Source: Bacteroidales bacterium (GTDB taxonomy: Bacteria; Bacteroidota; Bacteroidia; Bacteroidales; PUMT01). Taken from it: DNA of 32,113 nucleotides. The position numbers and the translations under genes were made by a program. Below are positions 1-9,864 of the stretch, one piece after another. The stretch spans positions 1 to 32,113 of the forward strand of contig SLOS01000409.1 in assembly GCA_007132365.1 (NCBI GenBank), read 5' to 3'. The number at the start of each line of letters is the position of its first letter. Position 1 is the first letter of the stretch. The notes beneath the pieces were generated by a model, which had not been told where the DNA came from, did not search any database, and was given only the letters and a program-made list of their open reading frames with translations.

Positions 1-875
1 CGGTCATAGTACCGGTCCACTTTAAGGCGCATGGACAAAGCCTGAATTATCATACCTCCGATCATTGCAAGAGGGAAAAGCGGGAAACCCTCCACTACGG
101 GATGTATCTGCCGTACACCTGCAAGCATCAGCCAGCCGACCAGTATAGCCAGTCCCACAACAGCAAAATGAAAAGCCATTGGTTCTATTGATTCGGAGGC
201 AACCGTGGCCATCGAATTTGGGTACCTGTACTTTTCAGGAATCAGTCCCCGCTTCTTATATTCCGGAATGCCCTTTGATTCATCCAAATTAACGCAGTAT
301 CCCTTGCGAATGGCGATGTTTATATAAAAAATACCGCCAACAACAGCTATAATAATACCGACCGTGGCTGACATCTGTGCCAGGTCGGCACCTTCCGGGA
401 ACCCGATCTGTTCAAACACACTGCGCATACCGGCGGCAGTTCCATGTCCCCCTGCAAACCCTATTTCAAGAATGGTCGCAAAAACCGGTGATACATCAAA
501 AAAAGGGATCAGCACCAGAACCGTAATCAGCAATGCAAAGAAATACTGTCCGGCACCTGCTATCATTCCAAAGCAAAGCTGGCTTCCTCCCTGTGACCAT
601 AAAACCTTTAGTCCCGGCACCGCAAGCCCGAGAAACAGGGTTGCAAAAACAAAGTTGATAAGGATACCGGGAATCTCCCTCCAGGTATCCAGTATGAAAG
701 GTGGCAGGATATCGGCAATAAAGGGTCCGCAAAACAAGGCCAGGAAGCCCCCTATAATTGATGCGGGCAGAAAGATCCTCTGGAAAAGCCTTATTTTTAC
801 CCGCAGGATTTTCCCCGCGAGGAGAAAGATGCAAAGGATACAAATGCTGAAAAATACTCCTGTCAATCCATCCAT
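1..875 (-). CDS. GltS-family sodium/glutamate (amino-acid) symporter, 3' end runs off the window
   Basis: Not in the ORF track; translated by hand from the ATG at 875: MDGLTGVFFSICILCIFLLAGKILRVKIRLFQRIFLPASIIGGFLALFCGP...EIPGILINFVFATLFLG...ILEIGFAGGHGTAAGMRSVFEQIGFPEGADLAQMSATVGIIIAVVGG. It has many TM segments, the LPASIIGG motif and the GltS-family GFxGGHGTAA motif. Confidence 0.88.
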   Translation of the reverse strand, partial: MDGLTGVFFSICILCIFLLAGKILRVKIRLFQRIFLPASIIGGFLALFCGPFIADILPPFILDTWREIPGILINFVFATLFLGLAVPGLKVLWSQGGSQLCFGMIAGAGQYFFALLITVLVLIPFFDVSPVFATILEIGFAGGHGTAAGMRSVFEQIGFPEGADLAQMSATVGIIIAVVGGIFYINIAIRKGYCVNLDESKGIPEYKKRGLIPEKYRYPNSMATVASESIEPMAFHFAVVGLAILVGWLMLAGVRQIHPVVEGFPLFPLAMIGGMIIQALSMRLKVDRYYD

Positions 876-985: not shown

Positions 986-2020
986 TCAGATCAGTTCAAT
1001 GCCGTCATCTTTCAGATTTTCCCGCATTGCTTCAGGCCAGACACTGGCCTGGACCTCTCCGACATGATGCTTGCGAAGCAGGAACATACAAACTCTTGAC
1101 TGACCAATGCCTCCGCCCATTGTCTGGGGTAGTTTGCCAGAAAGTAAAAGTCTGTGAAACAACAACTCTTTGCGATCCAGGCAATTTCTCTTTTCAAGCT
1201 GACGCAAAAGTGCACTTTCATCAACCCTTATTCCCATTGAGGATAATTCAAACGCCGATTGTATAATGGGGTTCCAAACGATAATATCGCCGTTGAGACC
1301 TTTGTACTGGTGTCCGGCAGGAGTGCTCCAGTCGTCATAATCAGGTGCCCGCCCGTCATGAATGCTCCCCCCTGGAAGCTCTCCCCCTATGCCTGTCAGG
1401 AAAAATGCCCCGTATTCACGGGCAGCTTCTGTTTCACGCTGTCTGGGCGTGAGTTCAGGATATCTGAGGAGCAGATCTTCGGAGTGGATAAATTTAATTT
1501 CCTCAGGCAATATCGGTTCTATATCGGGATATTTTGCCGATACGGCTTTTTCTGTATCCCGCAGGGCCTTATAGATTCTCTTAACGGTATCTTTAAGGTA
1601 ATGCAGATTCCTTTGTTCTCTTGTAATAACCTTTTCCCAGTCCCATTGATCAACAAAAACAGAGTGAAGGGGGCCCATATCCTCATCGGGCCTCAGTGCT
1701 TTCATATCAGTGATTATGCCCTCTCCCGGATTGATACCAAGTTGTGCCAGCCTGTATCGTTTCCATTTTGCGAGGGACTGGACCACGCTGATCTTTTGAG
1801 ATGGCATATCCCTTATAATCAGTGAAACAGGTCTTTCTATCCCGTTCAGATCATCATTTATTCCTGTATCTTCTGCAACTATCAGAGGGGCTACGACCCT
1901 TAAAAGTTGCAGCTGCTGGCTGAGTAATCCGGAAAAAGTTGTTTTAATCAGATCTATGGCCTTTTCTGTTTCAAGCTGGTCAATCAGTTGAGAGGTTCTT
2001 TCCTTTTGTGCGATTTCCAT
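986..2020 (-). CDS. asnA: Aspartate--ammonia ligase (asparagine synthetase A)
   Basis: AsnA motifs: VVQSLAKWKR, GEGIITDMKALRPDED, HSVFVDQWDWEKVI, HDGRAPDYDDW, GLNGDI, FELSSMGIRVD, LPQTMGGGIGQSR. Confidence 0.98.
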   Translation of the reverse strand: MEIAQKERTSQLIDQLETEKAIDLIKTTFSGLLSQQLQLLRVVAPLIVAEDTGINDDLNGIERPVSLIIRDMPSQKISVVQSLAKWKRYRLAQLGINPGEGIITDMKALRPDEDMGPLHSVFVDQWDWEKVITREQRNLHYLKDTVKRIYKALRDTEKAVSAKYPDIEPILPEEIKFIHSEDLLLRYPELTPRQRETEAAREYGAFFLTGIGGELPGGSIHDGRAPDYDDWSTPAGHQYKGLNGDIIVWNPIIQSAFELSSMGIRVDESALLRQLEKRNCLDRKELLFHRLLLSGKLPQTMGGGIGQSRVCMFLLRKHHVGEVQASVWPEAMRENLKDDGIELI

Positions 2021-2043: not shown

Positions 2044-2074
2044 AAAAAAAAACCCTCCGTTTTGCGGAGGGTTT
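2044..2074 (-). terminator. Intrinsic terminator (attenuator 3:4 hairpin) in the asnA leader
   Basis: Minus strand reads AAACCCTCCG-CAAAA-CGGAGGGTTT-TTTTTT: a perfect 10-bp stem with a run of 9 U, ending 23 nt before the asnA ATG. Confidence 0.92.
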
Positions 2075-2099
2075 CTGTGTTTTGTTTTTGGGTTCCAGT

Positions 2100-2189
2100 T
2101 TAAAGCTTACACATAATAACCTCCGTCCTTCTGAACTGATTATTGTTCAAAGGATTATTATTGAGGTTAAAATTATTTATTACGTACAT
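2100..2189 (-). CDS. Asn-rich leader peptide of asnA (putative asnL), 29 aa: MYVINNFNLNNNPLNNNQFRRTEVIMCKL
   Basis: ATG at 2189-2187 and TAA at 2102-2100. Codons 5-17 include 9 Asn (7 AAT, 2 AAC). It lies between a consensus promoter and the terminator, directly upstream of the Asn synthetase. In-frame ATGs also occur at 2201 and 2210. Confidence 0.85.
   Translation of the reverse strand: MYVINNFNLNNNPLNNNQFRRTEVIMCKL
2117..2169 (-). promoter_or_regulatory. Attenuator protector (1:2) hairpin containing the antiterminator segment
   Basis: On the minus strand, TAACCTC (2169-2163) pairs with GAGGTTA (2123-2117). TCCTTTGAAC (2154-2145) pairs with GTTCAGAAGGA (2136-2126) with one bulge. CGGAGG (2125-2120) can instead pair with CCTCCG (2070-2065) in the terminator 5' arm. 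Confidence 0.75.
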
Positions 2190-2211
2190 GTTGTATAACA
2201 TATTAATCATG

Positions 2212-2242
2212 CAAACATACTATCTATTTTTTAATAATCAAA
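2212..2242 (-). promoter_or_regulatory. Bacteroidota primary-sigma promoter for the asn leader/asnA
   Basis: Minus strand TTTG (2242-2239), 19 nt spacer, TATGTTTG (2219-2212): an exact match to the -33/-7 consensus TTTG-N19-21-TAnnTTTG. Confidence 0.8.
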
Positions 2243-2289: not shown

Positions 2290-4695
2290 TTAGAACGGGT
2301 ATCCGATTGCAAGATTAAGTATCAGATTATCCCTTCTCCAGGAAGAATCAAATGGCCTTACCGGTCCGAAGTAACTTCCAGTCTCATGCAATGTGCGGGG
2401 ATCGGCCAGCGGGAAGGCCAGGTCGAGCCGCAGCAGGAAAAAGTTGAAATCCAGCCTTAATCCAATTCCTGTTCCAAGTGCCACTTGCTTCAGGAAGTCG
2501 GGGGACCTGAATTTTCCACCCGGAACTTCCTCCTGCTCCCTCAGATTCCATATGTTCCCTGCATCTGCAAAAACAGCGCCCTTAAATATACTGCTGATAT
2601 CAAAGCGGTACTCCAGGTTCATTTCAAGTTTTATTTCCCCACCCTGGTAGATATTCAGGACTGTTCCATCTCTGTCCACAGGAGAGTAGGTTCCCGGGCC
2701 CAGTGTCCGGGGATGGAATGCCCGGATACTGTGGCTGCCGCCTGTTATGAATTGTTTGGTGTAGGGCAGGAATTCGGAATTGCCGTAGGGCACCCCGATA
2801 CCTGCTATAAGCCGTGTGGCAATGGTGCCGGTGTTTCCTGTTTCAATGGAATAACGGATTTCGGTGAGGATTTTTGTAAACTGGGAAAATCCCTGGCTTA
2901 AAATAGTATATTCACCCTTGTCATCCAAACTCCCCAGTCCCAGATTATGAAGGAACAGCCATGGCATATTACCTGCCAGGTCAAGGTTTAAATTGATAAA
3001 CCAGTTATGGTTACTGTTTTCAGTCAATTTGGAATTGTAAGTATATGAATACTCCGATCCCAGCATAAACTGTTCAAAAAGGCCCCTTCTGATGAGCAGC
3101 TCCCTGGGAAACTCTTCACCGAATTCCTCTGCTATAGTTCCCAGGAAAAAGGCATTGAAGGCAAATGGTGTGAATCTGAGCTGGGTGCTGATATAGGGAT
3201 TCAGTACATATCCGAATTCCGATCTGATGGTTGAAAGGCTGAAGGCATCGGTACGGTTGAGGTAATTGAAAGACACCGACATCCTTGTCCTCGGAGTAAA
3301 CCGGGGACGTATCCTGACTATATCAAACGGGATCACCAGGCGGTGTATGCTCAGCTCTGACAGGATCCCTGCCTCGTACATATTGATCCCCCTTTGGCTT
3401 GTAAGTGTTTCAAATGCGCCATTCAGCTGCACGGTGAGGTTCTCTGCCCCGCCGCGTAAGTTTCGGTTGCTGAACGAGGTGGTAAAACCGGGGCCTGCAA
3501 AATTATTTGATTTTGAAACACCTTTCAGTTCGGCACTCAGAGCCATCTGTTCCCTTGGAGTAAGTATTATCCGGGCATCCAGATAATTGTTGGCCGGATT
3601 ATTGTTTTCCCTGTCCTGCACCCTGTCGAAACGGATATTTACAAACCTGAAAACCCTCATGCTCATCAGATGGCTGATGGTAAGGAGATGATCTTCATAA
3701 TTGTATGCCCTGTCTTTTTCAAGGAAGATTGCCCGGAGCATGGTTTGAGGTTTCAGAATATCCCGGTCCGGACGGGTGAAAATTCCATCGCTTATCTGAA
3801 CTTTTTCAGCGGTCCCGGTCTCTTTATCCCTTTGGCCCGTCCGTCCGGTCTCAATAATTATGTTCCTGATTTTATAGCTCACCAGCGCTCTGGGTGGTGC
3901 ATCCTCCAGAATGCTCAGATGCAGGTCCACCTCCCTTGTACCTGCTGTACTGTCGGCCCTGAAGAGAATATAGTCGGGGTAAAAGTAATAATACCCCTTT
4001 CCCTTCAGGTAACCGTCAATCCTCTCCCTTTCCTTTTTCAGTATATCCAGTCTGAAAATATCTCCGCTATGTAAAATAGTTTCTTTCATTGAAAGGTTTA
4101 TCTCTTTGGCAATGGGTTTATTTTCCTCCAGAAGTGTTATGTTCCTTATTCTGTAAGCGGGCCTCAGCCGGACATTGAAGTCCACTTCTGTCTTTTTCCG
4201 CCTTTCCCTGAGGCTGTAGTCAACCGAGGCATCAAAATGGCCCATATTGAAAATGCGGTTTTCAATCAACTCGGCGACCCTTTGGATATTGAAATCCTGA
4301 ATAAGCACCGGTGGTCTTCCGGCTTCATTTTGCAACCAGTCCCCTATATTCCATAAAGAGACCTCTCCGCCTATATTATAAAGCCAAAGGCGGGGTCTCC
4401 AGAAGAGGAATCTGCTGTTGGGCCCGGGTCTGATCACCCCTTCTGCCTCTCTTATTATTTCTCTTTCATTCTTTATTGGCTCCCGGGATTCGAGTTTTAC
4501 CCGGCTTCCTGTATAAAGACTCTGATCATCTTCAAGGTACCTCAGGTTGGAACATCCTGTTGTCAGGAAAGCTGCCGGAATGATCAGCAAAAGGAATATT
4601 CTGCCTGTATATGCTATATCTTTACAGAAGCCATGGTCCCGGACCGTCTCCGAACCATGAGATCCATCTGCCCTGTGCCTTTTAATGTTGACCAT
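2290..4695 (-). CDS. tamL: Omp85/TamA-family outer-membrane lipoprotein (TamL-like)
   Basis: Hydrophobic signal with lipobox-like LTTG-C, POTRA-like N-terminal region, and barrel motifs GGSHSIRAF (VRGF-like loop), EYRF, FADAGNIW, GIGLRLD and LRLDLAFP. It ends in AIGYPF and sits directly downstream of tamB. Confidence 0.85.
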   Translation of the reverse strand: MVNIKRHRADGSHGSETVRDHGFCKDIAYTGRIFLLLIIPAAFLTTGCSNLRYLEDDQSLYTGSRVKLESREPIKNEREIIREAEGVIRPGPNSRFLFWRPRLWLYNIGGEVSLWNIGDWLQNEAGRPPVLIQDFNIQRVAELIENRIFNMGHFDASVDYSLRERRKKTEVDFNVRLRPAYRIRNITLLEENKPIAKEINLSMKETILHSGDIFRLDILKKERERIDGYLKGKGYYYFYPDYILFRADSTAGTREVDLHLSILEDAPPRALVSYKIRNIIIETGRTGQRDKETGTAEKVQISDGIFTRPDRDILKPQTMLRAIFLEKDRAYNYEDHLLTISHLMSMRVFRFVNIRFDRVQDRENNNPANNYLDARIILTPREQMALSAELKGVSKSNNFAGPGFTTSFSNRNLRGGAENLTVQLNGAFETLTSQRGINMYEAGILSELSIHRLVIPFDIVRIRPRFTPRTRMSVSFNYLNRTDAFSLSTIRSEFGYVLNPYISTQLRFTPFAFNAFFLGTIAEEFGEEFPRELLIRRGLFEQFMLGSEYSYTYNSKLTENSNHNWFINLNLDLAGNMPWLFLHNLGLGSLDDKGEYTILSQGFSQFTKILTEIRYSIETGNTGTIATRLIAGIGVPYGNSEFLPYTKQFITGGSHSIRAFHPRTLGPGTYSPVDRDGTVLNIYQGGEIKLEMNLEYRFDISSIFKGAVFADAGNIWNLREQEEVPGGKFRSPDFLKQVALGTGIGLRLDFNFFLLRLDLAFPLADPRTLHETGSYFGPVRPFDSSWRRDNLILNLAIGYPF

Positions 4696-4734: not shown

Positions 4735-7700
4735 TCAGTCTTCCCTGCGTCTGATTATATCCCTGAACCTGTTAAAGTTCCTTGAAATAATAAGAGAAAT
4801 TCCGGTCTCTATGACTTCACTCTCGAAGAGATCGTTGAAATTGGTATTTCTAAATCCCTTAAGAATCAGATTTCCTTCAGGGGTGATCAGGTACTCCATG
4901 GTAAAGTCACCGGCAATATCACCGGCCCTTGTTTCCCGGTGAGCTTCATCCTCCAGTTCAATATTACCAGCCACGGTAAACCTGATACGGTCATCGAAAA
5001 AATTCCTTGACACCTCCATCTGCAATTCTGTCCTTCCCACTGTTTCATCCCCGATATATTGCTCATAGGAGTCGATTTCGAAGCTTATGTTAACCCCTTT
5101 CACATAGCGATCTGCCATACGGTTCAGCTGTTGGGTAAGAAGGCGGCTTCCCGATGATCTGGCAGTGGCCTCTATACCCCCGGCCCCGGGCCGGTCAAGA
5201 GGGTTTTCCTGGAGGAAACTTCCCAGTAACAGGAGGGAAATAACCTGTTTATTGAGTTCTGATTCGTTTTGGTTTATTTCGTTTATCCTGGCCATTAACG
5301 ATCCGTCAAGTGCCATCTCGTGGCCCGGAGGCATGTCAAGTCTGAAACTGATCCTTGGGGTCAACAGATCGCCGTCAAGGTTAAGATATACCAGAAAGGG
5401 GAACTGCTGCCTGAGCCTTCCGGCCTGGATCTGGTCGCCCTCTACATGTGTTCTCATGAGCTCCCGGGGACTGGTATTAAGGGAGTAGATGGCCGTTATG
5501 TCAAGTTCTGCCTCAATTGGATCACCTGTCCACATAATAGTGCTTCCGGGTTCAATCCTGAAATCCCTCCTTATAACATCATAGAAGGTCAGAAAGTAAT
5601 TACCTTCCTGGATCTCGAAGGCTCCCGTCAGACCTATTCGTCCGGCGGGATCTATTTCCAGCACCAGGTCACCGCCCCCCTTTATTTCAAGGTTGTCACC
5701 GGCAATTTCGTCTATGATAACCTTCAGCCCGGTTTGCCTGTCAAGCTCCACATTAAGTCTGAGATCTATTCCCTGCAGTTCTGAGGTCAGCTCATCGGGT
5801 GAGGGTTCCAATTGTGCCAGCTGAAAAAAATCAGGTTCTTCCACCTGAATGAATTTTACTATTCCCTCCTGTGCAATAATCTGTGGATCAGTCTGGGGAA
5901 CGATAAAGGTGAATCTGGAGCCATCCATGAGTTTCAAATTACCTTCAATTGAGGGACCAGTAAGGTCACCTCTGAGTTGCAGGTCACTGTCCATCAGTAT
6001 TCTTCCATGGTACATATCCTGTTGTCCCGCCTGTAAATCCATCAGAAGAAAGTTTTTGCTCACCAGGTTGAGATTAAAAATGAAATTTTCCAGGCCGGGA
6101 AAATCCAGTGTGCCGTCAACAACCGCCTGCCGTCCCCTTGAATCTGTTATAGTAAAATCCTGGAGGCTGATGCTTTGATCGCTGAACTCTATTTTCTGAT
6201 TTTCTATTTCATAGCCTGCATTTAATTGCAGTACCCTGAAGGAGGTTTCGTGAAAATTAAGATCTCCGTTGAATTCAGGATTTTCGGGCGTGCCGGTAAA
6301 ACGGATTTTACCGTGAACAAAACCGCTCATTTCACTCAGGTGTTCCCTCAGGAAACCTTCAAGCAGATTTATATCCAACCTTTCAATTTCCAGGTCAATA
6401 TCAAAACCAGCCTCTCCGGAGATATATTCCCCCTCGGCGGATAGCTCCGACTCCTTATGTTTCAGGAATGCAGAAAGGAAATAATGACCTGGCTGGATAT
6501 CCCCGGCATGCAGTGTTATCAGCTCAACTCTTTCACCGGCCCATGTAATGTCCGCTATATTCATGTCCGCTATAAAGCTGGTTTCGCTGTAAATATCCCG
6601 TATTGTAATAACCCCGTTGATAATCCCCCCAATATATGGTGATTCATTGTCCATAAAACCGGTCAGCCGGTGAAGGTCAAACTCCGAAAAGTTTATTTCC
6701 AGTACATTTTCATGCTCCTCTGATTCGGTTGAGTGGACTGACAGGATGCTGCCCCTGTCCTCCAGGATCAAATCTGTAACCTTCAGGTATCCTTCTCCCA
6801 GCTCAATCCTGTTTCCGGAGTCAATATTCCATTTTTCTCCGTTAAGAATAAGTTTATCACTGTCCACCGATATATGATATAACTCCTCCCTGCTTTCAAT
6901 AACCGACCTGATGAAAAAAAGTTCCTTTTGGCCTTCGTCATTGAAAGAAAGTGACAGATCCAGGATTTCATCAAACAGCCCTCCGCTTAGTTCAAAACTG
7001 TAAATGCTGGTATGGTTGAACCCTACGGTGTCAAGAAGCACCCTGAAGTCCATTTTCTTTGGATCTGAGTCAATTGTTAACTCAATGTTCCGGAAGTCTG
7101 TTCCCGAATATATGAATTCCTCCATAGAGGCATTGAAAGTAAGTTTCTGCTCCCTGCTGTTGTATTGAACTGAAGCTGACAGGGTATCATACTTGTCAAT
7201 ACCGGGAAACAAAACCATGTTTATAAGATCGTCAGGTAAAAGTGTTATTTCGAAACTGAAATTTTTAAACTGGTCCGTGATCTCTTCCTGACCTTCGTTC
7301 AGGCCGTTATCCTCGATTTTCTCCCGGCTCCCATTGAAGTCGTTATCCGCGATCTCTTCCTGGTTCCCGTTCAGGACGTTATCCACATCTGGTTCGGGAT
7401 CGTCGTCCGTTGCCGGTGAGAGATCATGAACAGTAAAATAGTCGCCGAAATGCCCCGCCAGTGCACCGGGTATATCAACGGGTGTAAAATTACCATTATA
7501 ACCGGCAGTAAGGAACTCAGAGCTGATATCCAGGGAATAGGCCCCGGACCGGGATTCTGATTTGACAGTCATTTCAGGTATACTGTATGTTGCCTCACCG
7601 GTTGCAATATTAGTGTTTGAAAAAGTTATATTTCCATTGAAAAAATCTTCCGGGTAAAAAGTGATATCTGCCTCAATGGATGAACCAACCATCAGCTCCT

Positions 7701-9864
7701 CATCCGAGAACCCGAGTCGCCTCAGGTCCGCAAAAACAAGATCCATGGTTCCTTTTCCGAACGCTCTGGCAGTGAAGATCCCAATTGCTGCATCCAGGTC
7801 AATCACCAGGTAGTCATCACTGTAACTGGCCGAGGCTGTTGCCACAGAATCATTAAGGCCCAGATCCAGCCTGATATCCTCATATGAATGCTCCATTACT
7901 GAAAGATGCCCGACAACAAGCTCTGTTTTCAGTTTCATCGATGCCGGATCCAGTCCGCGTCCCCAAAAATCCAGCTCAATTGAGGGGGCGCTGGTTATAA
8001 TTTCCATTTGCAGCAGGGTACCTATATCAAAAGATCCGGTATATATTTTCCCTTCAAAACTGCTTTCTGATTCCTGTTGATCATACATTGATGCAATGAT
8101 TGACACATCTCCCAGATTGCTGGCTATTGCCATGGCACTCTCAAATTCACTTAATGTACCCCTGAAGTGTCCCCCTGCATCAATAAATTCAGGCAGGGTA
8201 ATTCCTTCCGGATGCAGTGTGTCGGGTAAACTGGCGAAAAACGGACCGGGCAGGGCATGCAGGCTGAAATTCTCAATATCCAGGTATAAACTGTCTGTTT
8301 TTGGCATACCTTCAACAGCCCCGTTAAACAGGGCTGTAAAAAATCCGGGGCCGGACAGCCGGAGACTGTCCACTGTCACATATTCCAGTGATCCGTGTAC
8401 CCTTCCACCGAATTCAATGCCTTGATTATCCGGCCAGTTGAAATAGTAATACCGCATAAATGGCAGGAAGAAAGCGATATCTTTATTAATATGGTTATCT
8501 GTCAGGTACAGGTCGAAACTTTTATCATAGAGATCTTCCGGCATAAAATTCAGCAGGTTTGCTTCCGCTTCAAGACTAAGGCCCAGCCTGCTTTCACCTG
8601 TAAGCATATCAAGGGTGACTTTTCCGGATTCGCTGCCCAGGTTGATATCAAGGGAGAGTTTATCCAGGCTGAAGCTTTCCGAAATAAGCATGCTCATATT
8701 ATCTATATCCATGTCTATCCTGTCGGGGCCTGCAAATATGTCCTTTGCCAGAAAGTTAATTCCCCCGAGAGAGAAGTTGCCGGGATCGAATATATCTGTT
8801 TGAATACCTTTGGCCTCTTCGCGCAGACTGAAAAATGAATTTTTTATATCTATCCTTCCCAGTTTGACAGTCCACTCCAATATTTCAGAAAATACAAAAC
8901 CGGTCTTTTCTTCTGAATTTGCAGCAACTGTTTCATTGCTTTGTGTTGATGCTTCGTTTTTTTCCCCGGAAGGGAGAAGTATTGAAATTGCAAGATTTTC
9001 AGTCCCAATTGAGGCAAGTTCAATAAAATAATCCGGCAGATTGATTGTCTCAGGAACCAGGTTCAGCATGCCGGCATCGATGTTGAGATTCGTTCCTGCA
9101 AAATCTTTATAAACAAAAGCAAGATCTGAGACAGATAGTAAATTAACTGATAAGTCAAGCTCCGGAATTCCCGGTTCTGAAGGTTCGGGTGGCATTGAGG
9201 GCTCGCCGGTATTGATTTCCGTATAGCTTCCCCGGAGTTCTGTCTTGCCTGCATGGTATTTTCCGTTCAGAAGATCAGAATGCCGGAGACTGGTTTGAAA
9301 ATAGTCCAGATGAGTTTTCAGCCTCAATCCTGAATGATGGTCCTCAAAAGTAAAACTTATGTTTTCAAGTTTAAATAAATCAAGGTGGAATTCCATGGAA
9401 CCTTCAGTTTCTGCTGCCTGGTCTTCATTATCTGTATCGGGGGCAAATGCATCCAGAATGAATTGATAGTTAAATACTGTATCAGGCTTTTCCCTTTTAA
9501 TAACGGCCCTTAGGTCTGTAATATCCAGTGAACTGATATGAATCCTGTTTCGCAGAAGGGCACTAATTCTTATATTGGCAAACAGACTCCCGGTATAAAG
9601 CAGGGTGTCACCAGCGGCGTCTTCAACAAATACACCTTTTAATCCGACTGATTTGGGAAAACGAATTGCCACCCTGTCAATACTAATCTCGCTGTCTGTC
9701 CGTGAACCCAGCCATGAAGTTATTTTGCCTGTCAGAAAAGTCTGAACAGATGGAAACTGCAGGCTAATAAATATTAAAAAGAATATGAACAGGAAAGCGG
9801 CCAAAAGCCATGTCAGCAAGCGAACAGATCTGATCAGGTATTTCCGGATTCTATTTTGCAGCAT
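4735..9864 (-). CDS. tamB: Translocation/assembly module TamB (AsmA-like, C-terminal DUF490)
   Basis: 1709 aa with an N-terminal TM anchor (LLTWLLAAFLFIFFLIFISLQFPSVQT) and a beta-rich repetitive body. The C-terminus is DUF490-like (WTGDPIEAELDITAIY, ELNKQVISLLLLGSF, GDFTMEYLITPEG). Adjacent to an Omp85 gene. Confidence 0.9.
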   Translation of the reverse strand: MLQNRIRKYLIRSVRLLTWLLAAFLFIFFLIFISLQFPSVQTFLTGKITSWLGSRTDSEISIDRVAIRFPKSVGLKGVFVEDAAGDTLLYTGSLFANIRISALLRNRIHISSLDITDLRAVIKREKPDTVFNYQFILDAFAPDTDNEDQAAETEGSMEFHLDLFKLENISFTFEDHHSGLRLKTHLDYFQTSLRHSDLLNGKYHAGKTELRGSYTEINTGEPSMPPEPSEPGIPELDLSVNLLSVSDLAFVYKDFAGTNLNIDAGMLNLVPETINLPDYFIELASIGTENLAISILLPSGEKNEASTQSNETVAANSEEKTGFVFSEILEWTVKLGRIDIKNSFFSLREEAKGIQTDIFDPGNFSLGGINFLAKDIFAGPDRIDMDIDNMSMLISESFSLDKLSLDINLGSESGKVTLDMLTGESRLGLSLEAEANLLNFMPEDLYDKSFDLYLTDNHINKDIAFFLPFMRYYYFNWPDNQGIEFGGRVHGSLEYVTVDSLRLSGPGFFTALFNGAVEGMPKTDSLYLDIENFSLHALPGPFFASLPDTLHPEGITLPEFIDAGGHFRGTLSEFESAMAIASNLGDVSIIASMYDQQESESSFEGKIYTGSFDIGTLLQMEIITSAPSIELDFWGRGLDPASMKLKTELVVGHLSVMEHSYEDIRLDLGLNDSVATASASYSDDYLVIDLDAAIGIFTARAFGKGTMDLVFADLRRLGFSDEELMVGSSIEADITFYPEDFFNGNITFSNTNIATGEATYSIPEMTVKSESRSGAYSLDISSEFLTAGYNGNFTPVDIPGALAGHFGDYFTVHDLSPATDDDPEPDVDNVLNGNQEEIADNDFNGSREKIEDNGLNEGQEEITDQFKNFSFEITLLPDDLINMVLFPGIDKYDTLSASVQYNSREQKLTFNASMEEFIYSGTDFRNIELTIDSDPKKMDFRVLLDTVGFNHTSIYSFELSGGLFDEILDLSLSFNDEGQKELFFIRSVIESREELYHISVDSDKLILNGEKWNIDSGNRIELGEGYLKVTDLILEDRGSILSVHSTESEEHENVLEINFSEFDLHRLTGFMDNESPYIGGIINGVITIRDIYSETSFIADMNIADITWAGERVELITLHAGDIQPGHYFLSAFLKHKESELSAEGEYISGEAGFDIDLEIERLDINLLEGFLREHLSEMSGFVHGKIRFTGTPENPEFNGDLNFHETSFRVLQLNAGYEIENQKIEFSDQSISLQDFTITDSRGRQAVVDGTLDFPGLENFIFNLNLVSKNFLLMDLQAGQQDMYHGRILMDSDLQLRGDLTGPSIEGNLKLMDGSRFTFIVPQTDPQIIAQEGIVKFIQVEEPDFFQLAQLEPSPDELTSELQGIDLRLNVELDRQTGLKVIIDEIAGDNLEIKGGGDLVLEIDPAGRIGLTGAFEIQEGNYFLTFYDVIRRDFRIEPGSTIMWTGDPIEAELDITAIYSLNTSPRELMRTHVEGDQIQAGRLRQQFPFLVYLNLDGDLLTPRISFRLDMPPGHEMALDGSLMARINEINQNESELNKQVISLLLLGSFLQENPLDRPGAGGIEATARSSGSRLLTQQLNRMADRYVKGVNISFEIDSYEQYIGDETVGRTELQMEVSRNFFDDRIRFTVAGNIELEDEAHRETRAGDIAGDFTMEYLITPEGNLILKGFRNTNFNDLFESEVIETGISLIISRNFNRFRDIIRRRED
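7279..7386. repeat. Three imperfect tandem 36-bp repeats, in frame within tamB
   Basis: gatctcttcctgaccttcgttcaggccgttatcctc / gattttctcccggctcccattgaagtcgttatccgc / gatctcttcctggttcccgttcaggacgttatccac, encoding VDNVLNGNQEEI-ADNDFNGSREKI-EDNGLNEGQEEI. Confidence 0.85.

What the first reader, a model, noticed from the sequence alone, without database searches (positions are those of the whole stretch)
2044..2242. Complete asparagine-sensing ribosome-mediated transcription attenuator upstream of asnA
Seen, minus strand, in order: a consensus promoter TTTG-N19-TATGTTTG (2242-2212); an unannotated 29-codon ORF (2189-2100), MYVINNFNLNNNPLNNNQFRRTEVIMCKL, with 9 Asn in codons 5-17; a 10-bp stem/9-U terminator (2074-2044); and the asnA ATG 23 nt later. 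Established: the trp, his, thr, leu, ilv and phe operons use this layout, with a leader rich in the end-product amino acid. In E. coli asnA is instead controlled by the Lrp-family activator AsnC, and Firmicutes commonly use T-boxes for such genes. No asnC-like gene or T-box is present here. Inference: Asn-tRNA shortage stalls the ribosome on the Asn codons and allows read-through into asnA. I know of no experimentally characterised Asn leader-peptide attenuator, but I cannot exclude earlier computational predictions.
Basis: partly seen in the sequence, partly recalled or inferred. Interest (0 to 1): 0.9.

Follow-up and report, generated by a model that had tools for sequence, protein, structure and literature searches.

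The report
Asparagine-sensing leader-peptide attenuator before asnA
A 29-codon mini-gene packed with asparagine codons, followed by a terminator hairpin, sits in front of the asparagine-making gene asnA and most likely switches that gene on only when charged asparagine tRNA runs short, the classic trp-operon trick applied to an amino acid for which I found no published example.

Summary
On the minus strand lie a Bacteroidota-type promoter (2242-2212), a 29-codon ORF with 9 Asn in codons 5-17 (2189-2100), a hairpin of about -17 kcal/mol plus 9 U (2075-2044), and the asnA ATG 23 nt later.

It is not chance. Of 37,284 short ORFs in this 2.87-Mb genome, this is the single outlier for Asn density.

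It is conserved. A model built from it finds one copy per genome in 17 of 20 genomes of the family. It also finds 9 strong hits among 97 other asnA loci, all upstream of asnA, in other Bacteroidia and Salinimicrobium. Two 'Chloroflexota' MAGs carry an analogous Asn leader.

The structures covary: the terminator, a 1:2 stem and an antiterminator are each about 92% paired. In 13 of 14 loci the stretch just after the last Asn codon complements the terminator's 5' arm.

The same genome has WWW, FFFFYF and FFFFFF leaders before trpE, tyrA and pheA.

No Rfam family, T-box or AsnC domain was found. Ten literature searches found no Asn leader.

Verdict: a real classical attenuator with a new specificity. 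There are no expression data.

The parts
2212..2242 (-). Bacteroidota-type promoter: -33 TTTG (2242-2239), 19-nt spacer, -7 TATGTTTG (2219-2212). The transcription start is expected near 2205.
   Evidence: Read directly. The same TTG..N19..TAnnTTTG block is kept in genus relatives (sequences printed). The consensus itself is recalled from the Bacteroides promoter literature and was not tested here.
2186..2203 (-). Small 5' hairpin (AUAUGUU-AUAC-AACAUGU) whose 3' arm contains the leader start codon. Its role is unknown.
   Evidence: Predicted. The sequence ATATGTTATA(A/C)AACATG is kept in 11 of 14 genus sequences. Because it barely varies, there is no covariation evidence.
2100..2189 (-). Leader ORF of 29 codons plus stop: MYVINNFNLNNNPLNNNQFRRTEVIMCKL.
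   Evidence: It is the unique Asn-density outlier in the genome. The frame and the Asn columns are kept in 14 of 14 genus sequences, with AAT/AAC interchange.
2139..2177 (-). Regulatory codon block: 9 Asn codons within codons 5-17, the proposed stall sites.
2163..2169 (-). Region 1 (UAACCUC, codons 7-9), which pairs with GGAGGUUA of region 2.
   Evidence: MFE fold. The helix is 92.7% paired over 16 sequences.
2127..2153 (-). Inner hairpin CCUUUGAAC / GUUCAGAAGG. It encloses the last Asn codons and may be a pause hairpin.
   Evidence: It is 91.4% paired, and 3 of 8 pairs show changes on both sides.
2109..2125 (-). Region 2, the 5' arm of the antiterminator: CGGAGG (2125-2120) and UGUGU (2113-2109).
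   Evidence: It starts 14 nt after the last Asn codon, so it lies just outside a ribosome stalled there.
2065..2080 (-). Region 3: ACACA (2080-2076) and CCUCCG (2070-2065). It is shared between the antiterminator (with region 2) and the terminator (with region 4).
   Evidence: The antiterminator is about -14 kcal/mol when region 4 is not yet made. It is 91.7% paired, and its core helix 98.8%.
2044..2075 (-). Intrinsic terminator: 11-bp stem, 5-nt loop, 9 U.
   Evidence: -17.0 kcal/mol. It is 92.4% paired, and 3 of 10 pairs show changes on both sides.
986..2020 (-). asnA, aspartate-ammonia ligase (344 aa): the regulated gene.
   Evidence: Pfam PF03590 at 7.9e-98.
3..875 (-). Sodium/glutamate-symporter-family gene, cut by the window end, 110 nt downstream of asnA. 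It is possibly co-transcribed and so under the same control.
   Evidence: Pfam Glt_symporter at 2e-09. No minus-strand terminator was listed between the two genes. The gene follows asnA in 19 of the loci (L001-L109) searched, all from this family; one is a duplicate record.

Best explanation
This is a classical ribosome-mediated (leader-peptide) transcription attenuator that reads the charging level of tRNA-Asn and controls asnA, and probably the symporter gene behind it.

Transcription starts about 7 nt after the -7 box. A ribosome then translates the 29-codon leader, and three outcomes are possible.

- Asn plentiful: the ribosome runs through the 9 Asn codons and over region 2 (2125-2109) to the stop codon. 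Region 2 cannot pair, regions 3 and 4 form the terminator (2075-2044), and the transcript ends as a leader RNA of about 160 nt.
- Asn-tRNA scarce: the ribosome stalls inside 2177-2139. This melts region 1 and the inner hairpin but leaves region 2 free, because it begins 14 nt past the last Asn codon. Region 2 pairs with region 3 as soon as region 3 is made (CGGAGG:CCUCCG plus UGUGU:ACACA, about -14 kcal/mol). The terminator cannot form and RNA polymerase reads into asnA.
- No translation: region 1 can hold region 2, and termination follows.

What is shown here: all sequence parts, their conservation and covariation, their exclusive association with asnA, and the same geometry in independent lineages.

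What is inferred: translation of the leader, stalling, the transcription start, and the response to asparagine.
For: 1. All parts are at the stated coordinates, and asnA starts 23 nt after the U-tract. That leaves no room for a promoter of its own, so asnA must be read through the terminator.

2. The ORF is the single Asn-density outlier among 37,284 short ORFs of the genome.

3. Conservation within the family. 17 of 18 family loci with at least 200 nt of upstream sequence carry an Asn-rich uORF plus terminator. Model R1 finds one strong copy (E <= 1.3e-7) in each of 17 of 20 family genomes: 16 next to asnA, and one at a contig end in a genome whose asnA contig starts 69 nt before the gene. 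The only other hit is a weak one (E 0.0066), which is a trp leader.

4. Signs of coding. The frame is kept in 14 of 14 genus sequences, the indels in the Asn part are multiples of 3, and the Asn columns swap AAT and AAC.

5. Structure. Terminator, 1:2 stem and inner hairpin: 92.1% of cells paired, 7 pairs with changes on both sides, and 0 of 500 shuffles as high. Antiterminator: 91.7% paired, and 1 of 500 shuffles as high. Sliding the 3' partners by 1-3 columns drops pairing to 31-66%.

6. Three-way covariation. Where the terminator stem reads CCUUCC/GGAAGG (L010, L015, L020), region 2 reads GGAAGG or GGGAGG.

7. Independent lineages. In 13 of 14 loci the segment beginning 13 nt after the start of the last Asn codon complements the terminator's 5' arm (-10.9 to -19.6 kcal/mol; at most 8 of 300 shuffles as good). 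This includes 'Chloroflexota' MAGs with an unrelated stem, CGUUGGGCG/CGCCCAACG.

8. Strand control. Over 103 asnA upstream regions, 26 have a uORF with at least 5 Asn in 13 codons on the sense strand, against 1 on the reverse complement. With a terminator the counts are 23 against 0.

9. The organism uses this logic elsewhere: a WWW leader before trpE, FFFFYF before tyrA and FFFFFF before pheA, each with a terminator.

10. Physiology fits. AsnRS is present, so tRNA-Asn charging reports free Asn. The only AsnB-type match is a 24.8-bit partial one, so AsnA looks like the main route to Asn.

11. The nearest Rfam models are leader-peptide attenuators (Phe_leader, His_leader), though both are below threshold.
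Against: - There is no expression evidence of any kind. No RNA run holds the locus, so the transcription start, the 160-nt terminated RNA, translation and the Asn response are all untested.
- With no ribosome and region 4 not yet made, the minimum-energy fold already prefers the 2:3 antiterminator over the 1:2 stem. The 'no translation gives termination' branch therefore depends on kinetics, not thermodynamics.
- The leader start codon sits in a small hairpin (2203-2186), which could limit initiation.
- The generic scan did not list the terminator on the minus strand.
- The closest relative (G009, AsnA 90% identical) lacks the leader ORF and keeps only a weaker hairpin (-9.8 against -18.2 kcal/mol) right after the promoter. 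The element is therefore dispensable in at least one lineage.
- It is patchy. None of the 7 other families of the order that have asnA carry it, and only 2 of 17 asnA loci fetched from an even phylum sample do.
- One locus (L032) fails the complementarity test, with 43 of 300 shuffles as good.
- Related sequences inflate shuffle tests.
Confidence: 0.85

Rival explanations
1. The leader is a structured RNA switch that works without translation. A protein or small ligand would decide between the terminator and the antiterminator, as with a riboswitch, a PyrR- or TRAP-like binder, or a T-box-like tRNA sensor. The AAU/AAC-rich stretch would be a binding or spacer element, not codons.
For: The alternative structures are real and conserved. 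The last three Asn codons are invariant at the nucleotide level and lie in a hairpin. The tail GGUUAUUAUGUGUAA is conserved as nucleotides even where an earlier stop ends the ORF. PyrR and other leader models give weak sub-threshold Rfam hits.
Against: - The only feature shared by unrelated versions (Bacteroidales, Salinimicrobium, 'Chloroflexota') is an ATG- or GTG-started frame rich in Asn codons, placed at a fixed distance before region 2.
- The 5' Asn columns vary only by AAT/AAC, and indels keep the frame.
- No T-box or riboswitch family reaches threshold.
- The same genome uses W-rich and F-rich leaders before trp, tyr and phe genes.
Confidence: 0.05
2. The leader ORF is translated and senses Asn, but the output is not intrinsic termination. 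Stalling could instead act through Rho-dependent termination, mRNA stability or asnA translation. Alternatively the peptide or the released leader RNA could have a role in trans, as reported for peTrpL/rnTrpL in Sinorhizobium (titles and abstracts seen in the listing).
For: The conserved C-terminal motif (EVIMCK) and the conserved 5' hairpin have no assigned role in the simple model. There is no direct evidence that the hairpin terminates.
Against: - The hairpin plus 9 U is a textbook intrinsic terminator and is present in every lineage that has the leader.
- The conserved 'peptide' tail coincides with the antiterminator nucleotides and survives as nucleotides when the frame ends early.
- A trans role would add to attenuation in cis, not replace it.
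Confidence: 0.06
3. This is coincidence or mis-assignment. The hairpin would simply be the terminator of the upstream Omp85-family gene, and the Asn-rich ORF an accident of AT-rich intergenic DNA.
For: The upstream gene is on the same strand and ends at 2290. Intergenic DNA here is AT-rich.
Against: - A conserved promoter lies between the Omp85 stop and the ORF.
- The ORF is a 1-in-37,284 outlier.
- The element travels with asnA in genomes with a different upstream context, and it is found only there.
- The reverse-complement control gives 1 region against 26.
Confidence: 0.02

Closest known systems
Classical leader-peptide attenuators of the enterobacterial trp, his, phe, leu, thr and ilv operons (Rfam Trp_leader, His_leader RF00514, Phe_leader RF01859 and others)
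   Same: It has a short leader ORF rich in codons for the pathway's end product. It has four pairing regions that give mutually exclusive terminator and antiterminator structures. Its intrinsic terminator sits just before the first structural gene. Phe_leader and His_leader are the best, though sub-threshold, Rfam hits, and their terminators align to 2074-2044.
   Different: The amino acid is asparagine and the target is asnA; none of my 10 searches found such a case. There is no sequence membership: 28.6 bits against a cut-off of 55, and 23.4 against 49. The host is Bacteroidota, with a TTTG/TAnnTTTG promoter and no Shine-Dalgarno sequence. The last Asn codons themselves lie inside a hairpin.
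Leader-peptide attenuators in Bacteroidota, such as the Bacteroid-trp motif (Weinberg 2010, recalled) and the leader-peptide candidates noted in Flavobacterium psychrophilum (PMC9723704, passage read) and B. thetaiotaomicron (PMC7366714, passage read)
   Same: Same phylum and same logic. This very genome has W-rich and F-rich leaders before trpE, tyrA and pheA.
   Different: The passages I read in those papers name no asparagine case; a term search of each text found 0 occurrences of 'asparagine' or 'asnA'. Their supplementary tables were not visible to me and could list one.
AsnC (Lrp-family) activation of asnA in E. coli (recalled)
   Same: The same regulated gene and the same signal, asparagine.
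   Different: That system is a protein regulator acting at initiation. No PF01037 domain was found in this 75%-complete genome, whereas the control search found it in 11 of 14 reference genomes.
Asn-specific T-box leaders of Firmicutes (recalled)
   Same: They also read tRNA-Asn charging and also choose between a terminator and an antiterminator.
   Different: A T-box binds uncharged tRNA directly and needs no translation. No T-box match was found here.
Tandem riboswitches and tandem T-boxes (recalled)
   Same: In many relatives, though not in this window, two Asn leaders, each with its own terminator, lie in series before asnA.
   Different: Here both units are leader-peptide attenuators for the same amino acid. 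For the second unit my antiterminator test was mixed.

Membership tests
Ribosome-mediated (leader-peptide) transcription attenuator | A short ORF in the 5' leader, enriched in codons of the amino acid made by the downstream gene | tested here: met
   9 Asn in codons 5-17 of a 29-codon ORF directly before asnA. It is the unique outlier among 37,284 short ORFs.
Ribosome-mediated (leader-peptide) transcription attenuator | An intrinsic terminator between the leader ORF and the structural gene, with no promoter after it | tested here: met
   An 11-bp stem, -17.0 kcal/mol, plus 9 U at 2075-2044, with only 23 nt to the asnA ATG. It is 92.4% paired in 16 sequences. The generic scan listed the hairpin on the + strand only.
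Ribosome-mediated (leader-peptide) transcription attenuator | An antiterminator that uses the terminator's 5' arm and is mutually exclusive with the terminator | tested here: met
   2125-2109 pairs with 2080-2065 at about -14 kcal/mol. It is 91.7% paired, with 4 pairs changed on both sides. The same complementarity appears in 13 of 14 loci from several lineages.
Ribosome-mediated (leader-peptide) transcription attenuator | Geometry: a ribosome stalled at the regulatory codons frees region 2, and a ribosome that reaches the stop codon masks it | tested here: met
   Region 2 starts at ORF nt 65 and the last Asn codon is nt 49-51. The stop codon is 7 nt past the end of region 2, and directly after its CGGAGGUUAUU core in the relatives that stop early. 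The footprint size is assumed from general knowledge.
Ribosome-mediated (leader-peptide) transcription attenuator | A region 1:2 pairing that gives termination when the leader is not translated | tested here: inconclusive
   The 1:2 stem is in the full-length MFE fold and is 92.7% paired. Before region 4 is made, however, the ribosome-free MFE fold prefers 2:3.
Ribosome-mediated (leader-peptide) transcription attenuator | The leader is translated, and read-through rises when the cognate aminoacyl-tRNA is scarce | not testable with these tools
   No RNA run was listed for the locus. This needs Term-seq, Ribo-seq or reporter assays.
Rfam Phe_leader (RF01859) / His_leader (RF00514) | A score at or above the family's gathering threshold | tested here: not met
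   28.6 bits against 55, and 23.4 against 49. No family reaches gathering score in the whole window.
T-box leader | A match to the T-box covariance model (specifier loop, T-box sequence) | tested here: not met
   T-box is not among the 17 matches at E <= 10 in 1900-2400, and there is no gathering-level hit in the window.
AsnC-dependent asnA control | An AsnC/Lrp-type regulator gene (PF01037 domain) in the genome or next to asnA | tested here: not met
   0 matches in G000, which is 75% complete, so absence is not proven. 11 of 14 control genomes match. The neighbours of asnA are an Omp85-family gene and a symporter gene.

The most novel reading that the evidence does not exclude
Asparagine joins Trp, His, Phe, Leu, Thr and Ile/Val as an amino acid sensed by leader-peptide attenuation. 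The asnA leader would define an undescribed, homologous cis-regulatory family spread through Bacteroidia and Flavobacteriia, with an independently built analogue in 'Chloroflexota' MAGs. In many members two different Asn leaders, each with its own terminator, act in series: a tandem leader-peptide attenuator giving a steeper, two-checkpoint response. The conserved symporter gene behind asnA would then be an Asn-starvation-induced transporter.
Probability: 0.55. Interest if true: 0.7.

Novelty: new member of a known kind. Interest (0 to 1): 0.62.

Why it matters
Leader-peptide attenuation is a textbook mechanism, but it is documented for only a handful of amino acids and mostly in Proteobacteria. 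An Asn-specific version would do several things:

- It would give asnA a regulatory mechanism in the Bacteroidota that carry this leader. asnA itself is rare in the phylum: 18 of 400 other sampled genomes have it.
- It would show the mechanism arising or being kept in at least two phyla for the same gene.
- It would supply a clean new RNA family. Model R1 already finds it specifically upstream of asnA, so it could be used to annotate metagenomes.
- It would offer a natural sensor of Asn-tRNA charging.
- It would point to the downstream symporter as part of an Asn-starvation regulon.

Cultured carriers exist (Salinimicrobium flavum KCTC 42585, Odoribacter sp. Z80), so the prediction is directly testable.

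Tried and rejected
- Rfam: only sub-threshold hits in 1900-2400. Nothing at gathering score in the window or at the trp/tyr/phe leaders of the same genome.
- AsnC: no PF01037 in G000.
- Chance: rejected by the genome-wide scan and the reverse-strand control.
- The hairpin as terminator of the upstream gene: rejected (see rival explanations).
- Other copies of the leader in the family: none. The single extra weak hit, G014:C120 (E 0.0066), is a trp leader (KIWWWH) before trpE.
- Expression: no RNA holder was listed. The four DNA runs I laid are contigs only. They confirm the sequence: one X1 contig covers 1900-2344 with 0 differences. They also show many related contigs matching only the leader core 2099-2204. 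They say nothing about transcripts.
- Second (type-2) Asn leader of relatives: my complementarity test was mixed, with 4, 20, 7, 49, 24, 177 and 14 of 300 shuffles as good; one locus was mis-parsed. Its antiterminator is therefore not established.
- L114 (6 Asn at the end of a 47-aa ORF, 400 nt upstream, no terminator seen) and L116 (R1 E 0.016, best Asn count 2) were not counted as leaders.
- Literature: ten searches found no paper describing an Asn-rich leader or an asnA attenuator. I read passages only, by term search, in PMC7366714, PMC9723704, PMC2965389, PMC4833913 and PMC5009743; none mentions one. Subscription-journal papers and supplementary tables were not visible. Examples are the Vitreschak 2004 and Lopatovskaya 2010 attenuator surveys (recalled, not seen) and the sORF tables of PMC7366714 and PMC9723704. 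Any of these could hold an earlier computational prediction.
- Complex prediction, structure prediction and the big protein searches were not used, because nothing here needed them.
Full report
**1. The observation**

Read on the minus strand, the window shows the following, in order:
- the stop of an Omp85-family gene at 2290;
- TTTG at 2242-2239, 19 nt, then TATGTTTG at 2219-2212;
- an ATG at 2189 opening MYVINNFNLNNNPLNNNQFRRTEVIMCKL, with TAA at 2102-2100;
- the hairpin GAAACCCUCCG-CAAAA-CGGAGGGUUUU followed by a run of 9 U in all, 2075-2044;
- 23 nt later, the ATG (2020) of a 344-aa protein that matches Pfam AsnA at 7.9e-98.

The ORF listing extends the frame to an ATG at 2210. That ATG abuts the -7 box, and the matching upstream ATG in relatives is closed by a stop, so 2189 is the conserved start.

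**2. Is it more than chance?**

I laid the whole genome (2.87 Mb, 43.8% GC, 439 contigs, 75% complete). I scored all 37,284 ATG-started ORFs of 8-70 codons on both strands for the largest number of Asn in any 13 codons. The counts fall off steeply: 252 ORFs with 4, 30 with 5, 5 with 6, 1 with 7. One ORF has 9, and it is this one.

The 195-nt leader folds at -42.3 kcal/mol against -25.8 +/- 3.7 for shuffles, z = -4.4.

**3. Anatomy**

Folding and comparison define four pairing regions.
- Region 1 is UAACCUC (2169-2163, codons 7-9). It pairs with GGAGGUUA of region 2.
- Inside that stem lies the hairpin CCUUUGAAC/GUUCAGAAGG (2153-2127), which encloses the last Asn codons.
- Region 2 (2125-2109) can instead pair with region 3 (2080-2065) as CGGAGG:CCUCCG plus UGUGU:ACACA. 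This is about -14 kcal/mol when region 4 is not yet transcribed.
- Regions 3 and 4 form the terminator (-17.0 kcal/mol).

The last Asn codon is ORF nt 49-51 and region 2 begins at nt 65. That is just beyond the roughly 13 nt a ribosome covers downstream of its A site (general knowledge, not tested here). A ribosome stalled on any of codons 6-17 left the 2:3 antiterminator as the predicted fold. A ribosome at the stop codon left only the terminator.

One point does not fit neatly. With no ribosome and region 4 absent, the minimum-energy fold already chooses 2:3 rather than 1:2. Termination in the untranslated state would therefore have to be kinetic.

A small hairpin (2203-2186) contains the start codon. 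It is conserved in sequence in 11 of 14 genus sequences but has no assigned role.

**4. Relatives in the same family**

The genome search found AsnA in all 20 genomes of the family (3 genera) and in 7 of the 21 other families of the order that were sampled.

Among the 18 family loci with at least 200 nt of upstream sequence, 17 have an Asn-rich uORF followed by a terminator. The consensus of the 14 genus sequences is M..NNNNLNNNALNNNQF..EVIMCK. Reading each sequence in its own frame:
- The frame is kept in 14 of 14.
- The indels in the Asn part are multiples of three.
- The 5' Asn columns interchange AAT and AAC, for example 9:4, 11:2 and 5:9.
- The last three Asn codons, which lie in the hairpin, are nearly invariant as nucleotides; the only change is one AAT to GAT.
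- The tail GGUUAUUAUGUGUAA is conserved as nucleotides even in four sequences where an earlier stop ends the ORF. This points to constraint on the RNA (the antiterminator) rather than on the peptide.

On the 16-sequence alignment A1:
- The terminator, the 1:2 stem and the inner hairpin are 92.1% paired. Seven pairs changed on both sides, and 0 of 500 shuffles were as high.
- The antiterminator is 91.7% paired, and its core helix 98.8%.
- Sliding the 3' partners by 1-3 columns drops pairing to 31-66%.
- Where the terminator stem is CCUUCC/GGAAGG (L010, L015, L020), region 2 changes with it.

These sequences are related, so the shuffle figures overstate independence.

A covariance model (R1) finds one strong copy (E <= 1.3e-7) in each of 17 of 20 family genomes. 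Sixteen are next to asnA. One is at a contig end, in a genome whose asnA contig begins 69 nt before the gene. The three genomes without a hit are:
- G003, whose asnA 5' end is unassembled;
- G017, whose leader has diverged (E 0.001);
- G009, the closest relative (AsnA 90% identical). There the segment from just after the -7 box to just before region 3 is missing, and the remaining hairpin is weaker, -9.8 against -18.2 kcal/mol.

The only extra family hit (E 0.0066) is a trp leader.

**5. Other lineages**

A scan of named genomes returned 80 asnA loci. The family itself consists of uncultured 'Bacteroidales bacterium' MAGs: L030 is the same record as L008.

Nine of the 80 loci have a uORF with at least 5 Asn in 13 codons plus a terminator:
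- L030;
- Salinimicrobium sp. (L032);
- two near-identical Bacteroidales records (L036, L037);
- L048;
- Odoribacter sp. Z80 (L062);
- L067;
- two 'Chloroflexota' MAGs (L069, L075).

R1 also recovers Salinimicrobium flavum KCTC 42585 (L039), whose leader starts with GTG.

In an even sample of 400 other genomes of the phylum, only 18 have AsnA. Of the 17 loci I fetched, 2 have the leader (L110 and L111, one genus). G036 had already been seen without one.

Over all 103 loci with enough upstream sequence, 26 have such a uORF on the sense strand and 1 on the reverse complement. With a terminator by my detector the counts are 23 against 0. This set includes one duplicate record and one near-identical pair.

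R1 gives 9 hits with E below 1e-4 among 97 non-family loci, all upstream of asnA. The Bacteroidia and Flavobacteriia versions are therefore probably homologous.

The 'Chloroflexota' version has a Shine-Dalgarno sequence before asnA and an unrelated stem, in which CGUUGGGCG in the leader faces CGCCCAACG in the terminator arm. It scores only E 0.013 with R1.

In 13 of 14 loci tested, the stretch beginning 13 nt after the start of the last Asn codon complements the terminator's 5' arm. Energies are -10.9 to -19.6 kcal/mol, and at most 8 of 300 shuffles do as well. L032 fails, with 43 of 300. The same geometry with different sequences is the strongest single argument for the mechanism.

**6. Context in this organism**

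The genome also has:
- MQNRMTNNIWWWHSLL... plus a terminator, 142 nt before trpE;
- ...FSWNFFFFYF... plus a terminator before a prephenate dehydrogenase gene;
- ...SSRFFFFFFG... plus a terminator before a prephenate dehydratase gene.

None of these reaches an Rfam threshold.

AsnRS is present, with two matches over the cut-off. The only Asn_synthase (AsnB-type) match is a 24.8-bit partial one. No AsnC-type domain was found. All of this holds within a 75%-complete genome.

A Glt_symporter-family gene follows asnA by 110 nt, with no terminator listed between them. It follows asnA in 19 of the loci (L001-L109) searched, all from this family; one is a duplicate record.

**7. Tandem units in relatives**

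In 10 family loci, and in both Salinimicrobium loci, a second and different Asn leader with its own terminator lies between the first terminator and asnA (M..N-run..K/L-S-P-P.. in the family; an N-run followed by proline codons in Salinimicrobium). The window has lost it or never had it: only 23 nt separate its terminator from asnA. My complementarity test for this second unit was mixed.

**8. Comparison with what is known, and novelty**

The element works like the trp, his and phe attenuators and meets their structural definitions, except for the two that need experiments. It is not a sequence member of any Rfam leader family.

Ten full-text searches and term searches in five papers found no Asn-rich leader and no asnA attenuator. 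Closed-access surveys and supplementary tables were not visible.

I therefore rate it a new member of a known kind: a new specificity and a new target gene for a classical mechanism. The tandem form in relatives is an added twist.

**9. Limits**

No RNA data exist for this locus. The DNA contigs from soda-lake and salt-lake metagenomes only confirm the sequence, and they show that the leader core is matched by many related contigs. The transcription start, leader translation, termination efficiency and Asn response are all inferred.

Noticed in passing
L004, L005, L007, L010, L012, L015, L016, L020, L026, L029 (between the first terminator and asnA); L032 560-670; L039 553-655: Many relatives carry a second, different Asn leader in tandem (M..NNNNNN-K/L-SPP.. 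in the family; an N-run followed by proline codons in Salinimicrobium), with its own GC-rich terminator. L008/L030 and L028 keep only remnants of it. The window has none.
   Followed up: partly
L002 (G009), about 100 nt upstream of asnA: The closest relative (AsnA 90% identical) lacks the whole leader ORF. Its promoter runs straight into a weakened hairpin (-9.8 against -18.2 kcal/mol). This looks like a natural deletion of the sensor.
   Followed up: partly
G000 contig C316 (L129), about 3140-3610; contig C426 (L130): The same genome has divergent leader ORFs with terminators: ..NNIWWWHS.. before trpE and ..FSWNFFFFYF.. before prephenate dehydrogenase. A third, ..RFFFFFFG.., lies before prephenate dehydratase. 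None reaches an Rfam gathering score.
   Followed up: partly
window 3-875 (-): A sodium/glutamate-symporter-family gene lies 110 nt downstream of asnA. It follows asnA in 19 of the loci (L001-L109) searched, all from this family (one duplicate record). It may be co-regulated and might transport Asn or Asp.
   Followed up: partly
window 2186-2203 (-): A conserved small hairpin (ATATGTTATA(A/C)AACATG) holds the leader start codon in its 3' arm. Its role is unexplained; it could time initiation or stabilise the 5' end.
   Followed up: no
L069 460-600; L075: Two MAGs labelled Chloroflexota have an Asn-rich leader (..NTSNNNGNNND.. and ..VNVNHTNNND..) plus terminator before asnA. Their antiterminator sequence is unrelated and asnA has a Shine-Dalgarno sequence. 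This is either independent invention or transfer. The binning of these contigs was not checked.
   Followed up: partly
G000 contigs C272:5679-7028 and C78:2353-3678: Two full-length matches to asnS (asparaginyl-tRNA synthetase) score over the curated cut-off in one 75%-complete MAG. They are either paralogues or contamination. No Asn-rich uORF was found elsewhere in the genome.
   Followed up: no
window 2099-2204: In four soda-lake and salt-lake metagenome runs, contig depth peaks 4- to 20-fold over the leader core. Many contigs of related organisms match only that core, so it is more conserved than the flanks and than the start of asnA.
   Followed up: no
window 2290-4695 and 4735-9864 (-): Upstream on the same strand lie an 801-aa Omp85/POTRA protein gene and a 1709-aa ORF. 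This arrangement resembles TamA/TamB; that resemblance is recalled, and the large ORF was not searched.
   Followed up: no
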